Origin: Escherichia coli
GTDB lineage: Bacteria > Pseudomonadota > Gammaproteobacteria > Enterobacterales > Enterobacteriaceae
Strand: one strand, 5' to 3'
NCBI RefSeq assembly: GCF_003334355.1
Contig: NZ_QOWP01000002.1
Length of the DNA: 64,000 nucleotides
The notes under the pieces: model-generated
Databases searched by the model: none
Told to the model about the DNA's origin: nothing
The model's input: the letters and a program-made list of their open reading frames with translations, nothing else
In this document: in pieces, positions 9,220 to 10,287 of the stretch
Numbering within the stretch: the stretch's first letter is position 1
Layout of the letters: each line of letters starts with the position of its first letter
Translations under genes and position numbers: made by a program

Positions 9220-10287
9220 ATGGTAGCCACTAGGCTAAATTCAATACAAATAATGCGCGGTATTGCAGCATTAATTGTTGTTGCATTTCACATAAGATAC
9301 AATTTATCTGTTTATGAGCAAAAAAAATCTTGGAGACTTAATGTTTTCAAATGGAGAAGTAGGTGTATACCTTTTTTTGTGATAAGCTGATTCATTATAT
9401 CACTATCAACAAGAAGGAAAGAGTCGCCTTTAGAATTTAGCATTAAAAGATTACTTAGAATATATCCTCCATACATATTTTCTTTTGCAATACTGCTTTT
9501 TTTATTGAATGAAAATTATAGATTAATGGATGTAGTAAAATCATTAATACTAATACCATTAAACTCGCACGCCGCAGGTCCATATTACGGGTATAGTATA
9601 CTCTTAGTTGCGTGGACACTTAGTTATGAGTTGTTCTTTTATTTTTGCTTTCTTGCATCAATGTCATTAAGCCAAAAATATAGAGCGGTAATATGTTCAT
9701 TAATACTGTCATCACTAATCATATTTGGCAATTATTATTTATTTGGATCGATTGGGGTAAATCCACACACAAGAGCATTTGATGGCGGTGGAATATTTGC
9801 AAGTATTATTTTCATAACAAACCCAATAATAATAAACTTTATATTAGGGATGCTTGCTGAGTTTATTTATAGCAATACAAAAACCAACAACAAACTTTTA
9901 AACAAAGCAATTAAAATGTTAGCTCCGATAGTTGCCGTAATATCAGTCTGGGGGATGCTATCACCTTCAATGTGGATGGGTGAAATGCAGTGGGCGATAC
10001 CTTGCTTTGGTCTTGTAACCTCTTTGTCACTACTGGAGAAGTCTGGGGTTTCTTTTGAATTTCCAAGTCTTGTAAAAATTGGAGCAATGTCATTCTCAAT
10101 ATATCTAATACACCCAATAATTATCGAATTATTAAGCCAAAAATATTTTGTTGTTTTTTGGCAGGATGGATTTACTAAGTTCTCAGTCATCATTTTGATT
10201 ACAGTTTTTGCGGCAAGAATAATGTATGAAACAATTGAGAGTCCATCACAAAAACTAGCCAGAAAGCTCATATCAAAAATAAGATGA
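9220..10287 (+). pseudogene. Disrupted O-antigen acetyltransferase (acyltransferase-3 family, oac-like)
   Basis: N-terminal MVATRLNSIQIMRGIAALIVVAFHIRYNLSVYEQ (9220-) then the conserved ...LMFSNGEVGVYLF motif falls in another frame between an A8 run (9320-9327) and a T7 run (9372-9378); in-frame TGA at 9388-9390 where VISGF would carry Gly; membrane-rich remainder to 10287. Confidence 0.6.

What the first reader, a model, noticed from the sequence alone, without database searches (positions are those of the whole stretch)
9220..10287. O-antigen acetyltransferase gene carries compensating homopolymer frameshifts plus an in-frame TGA
The expected acyltransferase-3 reading (…EQKNLGDLMFSNGEVGVYLFFVISGF…) is only recovered by removing one A from the A8 run (9320-9327) and adding one T to the T7 run (9372-9378); the codon where the VISGF glycine is expected is TGA (9388-9390). 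Either the serotype-conversion gene is decaying in this lysogen, or the homopolymers are phase-variable or mis-sequenced and only the stop is real, or an N-truncated product is made from the TTG at 9505.
Basis: seen in the sequence. Interest (0 to 1): 0.5.

Follow-up and report, generated by a model that had tools for sequence, protein, structure and literature searches.

The report
Dead prophage O-antigen acyltransferase gene
This is an ordinary pseudogene: a membrane acyltransferase carried as an accessory gene by a P22-like prophage, knocked out by three real, inherited mutations (+1 A, -1 T, and a Gly-to-stop change).

Summary
The A8 run is at 9320-9327, the T7 run at 9372-9378, and TGA at 9388-9390 is the only stop in the 356-codon frame that starts at ATG 9220.

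Intact alleles in E. coli O111 genomes have A7, T8 and GGA.

The lesions are not sequencing errors:
- 26.5 kb of chromosomal flank matches another E. coli genome with no net length change, and the left 7.85 kb is essentially perfect.
- The identical three-lesion allele occurs in other public assemblies, including a Salmonella enterica isolate.

The gene belongs to the acyltransferase-3 family (PF01757). It sits between an Sf6-type integrase and an O111-type tailspike. It is only 28% identical to Sf6 Oac, so it is not an oac orthologue.

Comparison of alleles shows that the +1 A and the stop-creating substitution were already present before the -1 T arose. The "compensation" is therefore non-productive. 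Slippage alone cannot switch this allele back on.

The frameshifted stretch and the stop destroy invariant residues (V49, F52, G57). The downstream ORF (TTG 9505 or ATG 9526) lacks the essential R-X10-H and RXXR motifs.

Verdict: a decayed accessory gene that travels with the phage. Interest is low. The one side issue worth noting is that the T8 run is broken to T7 in the commonest database allele, which is found in EHEC O111.

The parts
7776..7850 (+). tRNA-Arg(CCT), argW, the prophage integration site. The 16-bp att core CTGCAGGGGACACCAT lies at 7836-7851 (attL).
   Evidence: ARAGORN; exact repeat search; match to genomes with an empty site ends at 7851
45271..45286 (+). attR copy of the 16-bp att core. 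It marks the right end of the roughly 37.4-kb P22-like prophage.
   Evidence: right flank from 45300 matches strain PSS-12 with no net length change
8012..9169 (+). Prophage integrase (IntS), 98% identical to the Sf6 integrase. The ORF is open from GTG 7976; the Sf6 alignment begins at the Met encoded at 8012.
9208..9213 (+). AAGGAG Shine-Dalgarno sequence, 6 nt upstream of ATG 9220
   Evidence: read directly from the sequence
9220..10287 (+). Acyltransferase-3 family (PF01757) accessory gene, here a pseudogene with three lesions. GC is 32.4% against 46.9% for the prophage.
9320..9327 (+). A8 run, +1 relative to the A7 of all 17 complete-genome relatives (codons 34-36). It shifts the reading frame.
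9372..9378 (+). T7 run, -1 relative to the ancestral T8 (codons 51-53). It returns the reading to the original frame. It was the last of the three lesions to arise.
9388..9390 (+). TGA stop at codon 57, replacing GGA. This is Gly57 of the invariant FFxISG motif.
9220..9390 (+). The only translatable N-terminal ORF: 56 codons plus stop. Residues 1-35 are native and include R13-X10-H24. Residues 36-52 are out-of-frame sequence.
   Evidence: the exact 56-aa product is found on 2 Logan contigs
9505..10287 (+). Residual downstream ORF (TTG 9505 = codon 96; ATG 9526 = codon 103). No Shine-Dalgarno sequence. It lacks the R-X10-H and RXXR motifs.
   Evidence: the 253-aa form is annotated in NCBI records HAH2849724.1 and OWD66917.1
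9497..9503 (+). Second T7 run. It has the ancestral length in the window but is changed by +1 or -1 in five other alleles or allele groups (L003, L013, L015, L022-L027, L028).
10292..10322 (.). Hairpin with a 12-bp stem between the convergent acyltransferase and tailspike genes. Terminator-like, with the T-run on the minus-strand side.
   Evidence: dG -20.3 kcal/mol, z -5.9
10328..12265 (-). P22-like tailspike, 645 aa. The N-terminal head-binding domain resembles Sf6 and CUS-3. The C-terminal receptor domain is 81-88% identical to tailspikes of lytic phages ECGD1, STP55 and ECO111 5-P; the last is recorded on an E. coli O111 host.

Best explanation
Window 9220-10287 is the inactivated copy of a stand-alone acyltransferase-3 (AT3) membrane protein gene. 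A P22-like (Lederbergvirus) prophage integrated at argW carries it as an AT-rich accessory gene between its integrase and its tailspike.

In intact alleles the 355-aa protein has the family's essential R-X10-H and RXXR motifs. By analogy with Sf6 Oac, it presumably carries an acyl group from cytoplasmic acyl-CoA to the O-antigen that the neighbouring tailspike recognises, probably the O111 type. That would change the receptor and exclude related phages. This function is inferred, not shown.

In this window the gene is dead. A +1 slippage in an A7 run (now A8) and a G-to-T change that turns Gly57 (GGA) into TGA arose first. A -1 slippage in the T8 run (now T7) came last. The last change puts the ribosome back in the original frame, but only to meet the stop five codons later. 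The only product is therefore a 56-residue fragment.

The lesions are real and heritable. They predate this lysogen, because the same allele travels with the phage into other E. coli and into Salmonella. The apparent compensation is a neutral coincidence of slippage at the gene's longest homopolymers.
For: Sequence and reconstruction
- The lesions are at the stated coordinates.
- Intact alleles with A7, T8 and GGA exist in L008, L009, L012, L016 and L017, annotated as full-length 355/356-aa proteins.
- The repaired window protein differs from the intact one by only 2 residues.

Family and genome position
- Pfam Acyl_transf_3 E = 2.6e-28 over residues 7-333. PHROG 3333 'O-acetyltransferase' E = 5.6e-101.
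- R13-X10-H24 and R77-X-X-R80 are present. These motifs are reported as essential in PMC9833829 and PMC9558356.
- Gly57, V49, F52 and F53 are invariant among five phage AT3 proteins of 20-36% identity.
- It occupies the same slot as Sf6 oac, between int and tailspike. The integrase is 98% identical to Sf6 Int.

Not a sequencing artefact
- The left flank 1-7851 gives an essentially perfect match to strain PSS-12.
- The right flank of 18,701 nt matches PSS-12 in one piece of equal length.
- Loci L019 (SRR3823860) and L020 (GCA_012531255.1) are 100% identical to the window over 4.6 and 6.8 kb.
- L021 (SRR10405294) is 100% identical over 8354-11555. Its flank is about 80% identical to E. coli, and its YfdC and IntS are exact Salmonella proteins.

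Order of events
- The window group and L022-L027 share A8, T at 9388 and G at 10241.
- Only the window group has T7. L022-L027, L001, L003 and L028 all have T8.

No rescue
- No SECIS-like fold follows the TGA (z +0.8).
- No compensated full-length protein (A8+T7+GGA) is in the 15-billion-protein collection on four backgrounds tried.
Against: - No experiment here shows absence of activity, and the substrate of even the intact enzyme is unknown.
- The order of A8 versus the G-to-T change is not resolved. All four combinations of A7/A8 with G/T at 9388 exist. Either recurrent slippage or recombination occurred, which weakens strict parsimony.
- L019 or L020 could be the same isolate as the window. 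Independence rests mainly on the Salmonella copy and on the two separate NCBI protein records.
- The host serogroup of the window is not known.
Confidence: 0.9

Rival explanations
1. The gene is a phase-variable contingency locus. The A and T runs switch expression on and off by slipped-strand mispairing, and the window shows a temporary OFF state.
For: - The runs change recurrently. The first T run is T7 in 8 and T8 in 9 of 17 complete genomes.
- Within the O111 clade, T7/T8 conflicts with SNP 9964 under the four-gamete test.
- The T7 form is on at least 1000 contigs, against 313 for intact forms.
- A8 occurs on both the G and T backgrounds at 9388.
- The second T run at 9497 changed in five alleles.
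- Repeat-mediated switching of AT3 genes is known in Haemophilus oafA.
Against: - In this allele the in-frame TGA is a substitution, so no combination of run lengths restores the protein.
- Even without the stop, the A8/T7 combination would replace 17 residues, including invariant V49 and F52.
- The number of runs of 7 or more is not higher than expected from the protein sequence and codon usage (3 observed, 1.6 expected, P = 0.12).
- Runs of 7-8 A or T are short for a dedicated switch (my background knowledge).
Confidence: 0.06
2. The homopolymer differences are sequencing or assembly errors, and only the stop codon, or nothing, is real.
For: Homopolymer indels are the typical error of several sequencing platforms, and the two differences cancel each other. 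This is prior expectation only; no tool result supports it.
Against: - The exact 56-aa product, which requires A8, T7 and TGA together, is found on other contigs.
- Three loci from different samples are 100% identical across the gene, one of them in Salmonella.
- 26.5 kb of flanking chromosome shows no net indel against an independent genome.
Confidence: 0.02
3. A functional enzyme is still made. Either an N-terminally truncated protein starts at TTG 9505 or ATG 9526, or the gene is recoded by transcriptional or ribosomal slippage at the runs plus TGA read-through.
For: - The downstream ORF stays open for 260 codons and still matches PF01757.
- PGAP annotates such fragments as 'acyltransferase family protein'.
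- A8 and T7 are the kind of tract on which slippage can occur (my background knowledge).
Against: - The truncated ORF starts at codon 96 or 103. It lacks R13-X10-H24, the FFxISG motif and R77-X-X-R80, which are reported as essential.
- No Shine-Dalgarno sequence precedes either start.
- Recoding would need three rare events on one message.
- The downstream part staying open is expected for a recent pseudogene, since only two amino-acid differences separate it from the intact allele.
- No SECIS-like structure is present.
Confidence: 0.02

Closest known systems
Shigella phage Sf6 Oac (OacA), O-antigen O-acetyltransferase
   Same: - Stand-alone AT3 membrane protein of similar size (333 vs 355 aa).
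- Encoded between the integrase and the tailspike of a P22-like phage that integrates at argW.
- Shares the R-X10-H, FFxISG and RXXR motifs.
   Different: - Only 28% identical, and only over the N-terminal 189 residues, so it is not an orthologue.
- The neighbouring tailspike is of a different receptor type (O111-like), so the acceptor sugar must differ.
- The window copy is inactivated.
AT3 genes of Salmonella Lederbergviruses SI8, Si3, SF6 and SF10 ('ExoZ-like')
   Same: - The closest phage-encoded relatives over full length (31% identity).
- Also located next to the tail-fibre/tailspike gene near the integration module.
   Different: Low identity, uncharacterised, and intact in those phages.
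neuO of E. coli K1 prophage CUS-3, a 'mobile contingency locus'
   Same: - A polysaccharide O-acetyltransferase carried by a P22-like phage related to this one. The window's prophage body matches CUS-3 over 61% at 95.5% identity.
- By my own knowledge, CUS-3 integrates at argW, neuO sits near its tailspike gene, and the gene is switched on and off by slipped-strand mispairing. None of these three points was checked here.
   Different: - NeuO is a soluble hexapeptide-repeat acetyltransferase, not an AT3 protein (my own knowledge).
- Its switch is a heptanucleotide repeat array in the coding region, not mononucleotide runs (my own knowledge).
- Here there is no evidence of a dedicated switch, and this allele is locked off.
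Phase-variable AT3 genes such as Haemophilus influenzae oafA
   Same: AT3 surface-glycan acetyltransferases that are frameshifted in some strains and intact in others (PMC9558356).
   Different: - In those genes on/off switching has been documented.
- Here the mutations are at ordinary A/T runs plus a nonsense substitution.

Membership tests
Acyltransferase-3 (AT3, Pfam PF01757) | Significant match to the PF01757 profile over most of the protein | tested here: met
   Intact allele: E = 2.6e-28, residues 7-333 of 355. The window's 253-aa residual ORF also carries a PF01757 hit.
Acyltransferase-3 (AT3, Pfam PF01757) | R-X10-H motif in transmembrane helix 1 (essential; PMC9833829) | tested here: met
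   R13-GIAALIVVAF-H24. It is invariant in the five-protein alignment. It is still encoded in the window's 56-aa fragment.
Acyltransferase-3 (AT3, Pfam PF01757) | RXXR motif at the cytoplasmic face of helix 3 (essential) | tested here: met
   R77-L-L-R80 in the intact allele. In the window it lies after the stop and before any start codon, so it is not translated.
Acyltransferase-3 (AT3, Pfam PF01757) | Ten transmembrane helices | tested here: inconclusive
   A Kyte-Doolittle scan gives eight clear hydrophobic peaks. The charged helix 1 falls below the threshold. No dedicated topology predictor or structure model was run.
Sf6 Oac / Shigella OacA-D orthologues | Close sequence relationship to Oac | tested here: not met
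   28% identity over 189 residues, E = 2e-10 in a pairwise comparison. Sf6 is absent from the tblastn hits at 1e-5.
Sf6 Oac / Shigella OacA-D orthologues | Gene located between int and tailspike of an argW-integrating P22-like phage | tested here: met
Sf6 Oac / Shigella OacA-D orthologues | O-acetylation of the O-antigen, causing seroconversion or phage exclusion | not testable with these tools
   Needs LPS chemistry or serology.
Slipped-strand contingency (phase-variable) locus | Repeat tract in the coding region that changes length recurrently | tested here: met
   The A run, the T run and the second T run all vary among 28 sequences, with four-gamete conflicts.
Slipped-strand contingency (phase-variable) locus | Tract length or number beyond what composition explains | tested here: not met
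   3 runs of 7 or more against 1.6 expected under synonymous-codon permutation, P = 0.12.
Slipped-strand contingency (phase-variable) locus | Reversible switching that restores a functional reading frame | tested here: not met
   For this allele the TGA substitution at Gly57 blocks every tract-length combination. Within-culture switching of other alleles is not testable here.

The most novel reading that the evidence does not exclude
In intact alleles the T8 run, and to a lesser degree the A7 run, may act as a real slipped-strand on/off switch for acylation of the O111/O35-type O-antigen. The switch would be carried by a Lederbergvirus that moves between E. coli and Salmonella. Most EHEC O111 would then sit in the OFF (T7) state, and the window allele would be a locked-OFF descendant of that switch.
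Probability: 0.12. Interest if true: 0.45.

Novelty: new member of a known kind. Interest (0 to 1): 0.15.

Why it matters
It matters little beyond correct annotation. The locus should be called one pseudogene, not a 56-aa ORF plus a 253/260-aa 'acyltransferase'. RefSeq annotates several such fragments of this gene as ordinary proteins.

Two modest points of wider interest:
- A temperate phage with an O111-type tailspike circulates in both E. coli and Salmonella while carrying a dead receptor-modification gene. The gene is therefore dispensable for the phage.
- Broken alleles of this gene outnumber intact ones in public data, with the commonest (T7) form found in EHEC O111. This would be relevant if O111 acylation affects serology, vaccines or phage susceptibility.

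Tried and rejected
- Megablast of the gene against 50,697 phage records found nothing. The closest phage proteins are about 31% identical.
- NCBIfam gave no family for the acyltransferase or the tailspike.
- PDB sequence search gave no meaningful hit.
- The promoter and terminator consensus scan gave no more sites than shuffles. One promoter-like site lies at 9150-9178.
- Selenocysteine or read-through idea: no structure downstream of TGA, and the ancestral codon is GGA.
- Designed homopolymer switch: run count is not significant given the protein sequence and codon usage.
- Exact look-ups of hypothetical compensated full-length proteins (A8+T7+GGA), and of an intact protein on the window's own background, were all absent.
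- A literature search for O-acetylation of the O111 antigen found nothing specific.
- Sequencing-error explanation: rejected.

Full report
**Observation**

The window has a run of eight A at 9320-9327 and a run of seven T at 9372-9378. TGA at 9388-9390 is in frame with ATG 9220. Frame 1 of 9220-10287 has that single internal stop in 356 codons. Between the two runs the neighbouring frame reads KNLGDLMFSNGEVGVYLF. The first start codon after the stop is TTG 9505, in the same frame.

**Context**

- The gene lies in a prophage of about 37.4 kb integrated at tRNA-Arg(CCT) (7776-7850). A 16-bp att core is repeated at 7836-7851 and 45271-45286.
- To its left is an integrase 98% identical to that of Shigella phage Sf6.
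- To its right, convergent, is a 645-aa P22-type tailspike. The tailspike's receptor-binding part is 81-88% identical to tailspikes of lytic phages ECGD1, STP55 and ECO111 5-P. The last is recorded on an E. coli O111 host.
- A hairpin with a 12-bp stem separates the two genes.
- The prophage body is a mosaic relative of Kapi1, CUS-3, HK620 and Sf101.
- The gene has 32.4% GC against 46.9% for the prophage, which is typical of an accessory 'moron' gene.

**What the gene is**

No phage record matches the DNA closely. Twenty-two complete E. coli genomes, mostly O111, carry it at 98.6-99.1% identity. I fetched 17 of them.

- Five (L008, L009, L012, L016, L017) have an uninterrupted 355/356-aa gene annotated 'acyltransferase family protein'.
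- The intact protein reads ...SVYEQKNLGDLMFSNGEVGVYLFFVISGFIISLS....
- It matches Pfam Acyl_transf_3 (PF01757) at E = 2.6e-28 over residues 7-333. It matches PHROG 3333 'O-acetyltransferase' at E = 5.6e-101.
- It carries the two motifs that the literature reports as essential in this family: R-X10-H in helix 1 (R13...H24) and RXXR at helix 3 (R77-L-L-R80) (PMC9833829; PMC9558356).
- It is only 28% identical to Sf6 Oac, and only over the N-terminal half. It is a family member in the same genome slot, not an oac orthologue.
- In an alignment of five phage AT3 proteins at 20-36% identity, the invariant residues are R13, H24, V49, F52, F53, I55, S56, G57, R77, R80 and W132-T-L-x-x-E137.

**The lesions**

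Against the 17 relatives:

| Site | Window | Relatives |
|---|---|---|
| A run, 9320-9327 | A8 | A7 in all 17 |
| T run, 9372-9378 | T7 | T8 in 9, T7 in 8 |
| Codon at 9388-9390 | TGA | GGA in 16, TGA in strain 8E only |

The window therefore has a +1, a -1 and a nonsense substitution at the invariant Gly57. The stretch between the two indels (residues 36-52) is read out of frame and loses invariant V49 and F52. Once repaired in silico, the protein differs from the intact O111 protein at only two positions, so the inactivation is recent.

**Are the lesions real?**

Yes.

- The left chromosomal flank (1-7851) matches strain PSS-12 essentially perfectly.
- The right flank (18,701 nt) matches PSS-12 in a single piece of identical length. 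The assembly is therefore not noisy at homopolymers.
- The exact 56-residue product, which requires A8, T7 and TGA together, is present on two Logan contigs. The 253-aa downstream product is present in two NCBI records.
- Loci L019 (SRR3823860) and L020 (GCA_012531255.1) are 100% identical to the window over 4.6 and 6.8 kb.
- L021 (SRR10405294) is 100% identical over 8354-11555. Its host flank is only about 80% identical to E. coli. Its YfdC and IntS proteins are exact matches to Salmonella enterica proteins.

The same dead allele thus sits in prophages of two genera. The phage lineage carried it dead before it lysogenised this host.

**Order of events**

Further alleles recovered from the protein collection:

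| Alleles | A run | T run | Base at 9388 | Second T run (9497) |
|---|---|---|---|---|
| L022-L027 | A8 | T8 | T | one extra T |
| L028 | A8 | T8 | G | one T fewer |

The window group and L022-L027 share A8, T at 9388 and a SNP at 10241. Every other member of this haplotype group has T8. The simplest history is therefore that A8 and the G-to-T change came first, in an order that cannot be resolved, and that T8-to-T7 came last on the window branch.

The last step restores the frame but cannot restore the protein. The 'compensation' is a coincidence of neutral slippage at the longest remaining run.

All four combinations of A7/A8 with G/T at 9388 exist. Some recurrent slippage or recombination has therefore occurred, and the parsimony argument is good but not absolute.

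**Phase variation?**

Across the 28 sequences, every indel lies in one of the three runs of 7 or more, in an A5 run, or in an AAT repeat. Within the O111 clade, T7/T8 conflicts with SNP 9964. In the large protein collection the T7-truncated product is on at least 1000 contigs, against 177+125+11 for intact forms. The runs are therefore mutational hot spots.

Three points argue against a dedicated switch:

- The number of such runs is not beyond expectation from the protein sequence and codon usage (3 against 1.6, P = 0.12).
- The runs are short for a dedicated switch.
- In this allele the stop codon cannot be removed by slippage.

I rate a true contingency function for the intact alleles as possible but unproven. 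For this allele it is excluded.

**Other rescues**

- The downstream ORF starts at codon 96 (TTG) or 103 (ATG). It has no Shine-Dalgarno sequence and lacks R-X10-H, FFxISG and RXXR.
- Nothing resembling a SECIS element follows the TGA.
- No full-length 'compensated' protein (A8+T7+GGA) was found by exact look-up on four backgrounds.

**Mechanism**

*Shown:* family membership, motifs, genome position, the three lesions, their heritability and their relative order.

*Inferred:*
- The intact enzyme acylates the O-antigen recognised by the adjacent tailspike (probably O111 type) and so alters the phage receptor. This rests on analogy with Sf6 Oac and other prophage AT3 genes.
- The loss is neutral or favoured.

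**Verdict**

This is a correctly observed, ordinary pseudogene of an uncharacterised AT3 accessory gene. Interest is low. The annotation lesson is that RefSeq calls several fragments of this gene ordinary proteins.

Noticed in passing
window 9372-9378, and the equivalent position in L002, L004-L007, L010, L011, L014: The commonest database allele of this gene has the T8 run shortened to T7. It is called as a 302-aa protein starting at GTG (window 9379) and is found on at least 1000 contigs, against 313 for intact forms. In the complete genomes examined it occurs in EHEC O111. Within the O111 clade, T7/T8 conflicts with SNP 9964, which suggests repeated slippage.
   Followed up: partly
L021 (SRR10405294), equivalent to window 8354-11555: A Salmonella enterica isolate carries the same prophage end, integrated at the same tRNA-Arg site next to its own yfdC. 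Its acyltransferase pseudogene is 100% identical, as is the part of the tailspike gene held in the locus. The phage, with its O111-type tailspike, therefore crosses genera.
   Followed up: partly
window 10328-12265 (-): The tailspike has an Sf6/CUS-3-like N-terminal head-binding domain. Its C-terminal receptor domain is 81-88% identical to tailspikes of unrelated lytic phages (ECGD1, STP55, ECO111 5-P). This is an example of receptor-domain exchange across phage groups.
   Followed up: partly
window 10292-10322: A perfect 12-bp-stem hairpin (dG -20.3 kcal/mol, z -5.9) lies between the convergent acyltransferase and tailspike genes. It has a T-run only on the minus-strand side and is probably the late-operon terminator. 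The consensus terminator scan missed it.
   Followed up: yes
L001/L018 (E. coli O111:H8 strain 8E); L002 (strain 11128): In strain 8E the argW element is only a remnant of about 9 kb: int, the dead acyltransferase, tailspike, ant and arc, adjoining sucrose (csc) genes. In 11128 the acyltransferase-tailspike block sits next to dacD with no integrase between them. RefSeq annotates the fragments of the gene as ordinary 'acyltransferase family protein' CDSs without a pseudogene flag.
   Followed up: partly
window 9867-10271 (-): A 134-codon antisense ORF lies inside the acyltransferase gene. It is annotated 'hypothetical protein' in strain OkiPb01689 and was called in a Logan contig. It is probably a spurious call in AT-rich DNA.
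   Followed up: no
window 9497-9503: A second T7 run, preceded by a C, is intact here. It carries five different length changes in other alleles: L003 lost the C, L013 and L028 lost a T, and L015 and L022-L027 gained a T. It is another slippage hot spot in the same gene.
   Followed up: yes
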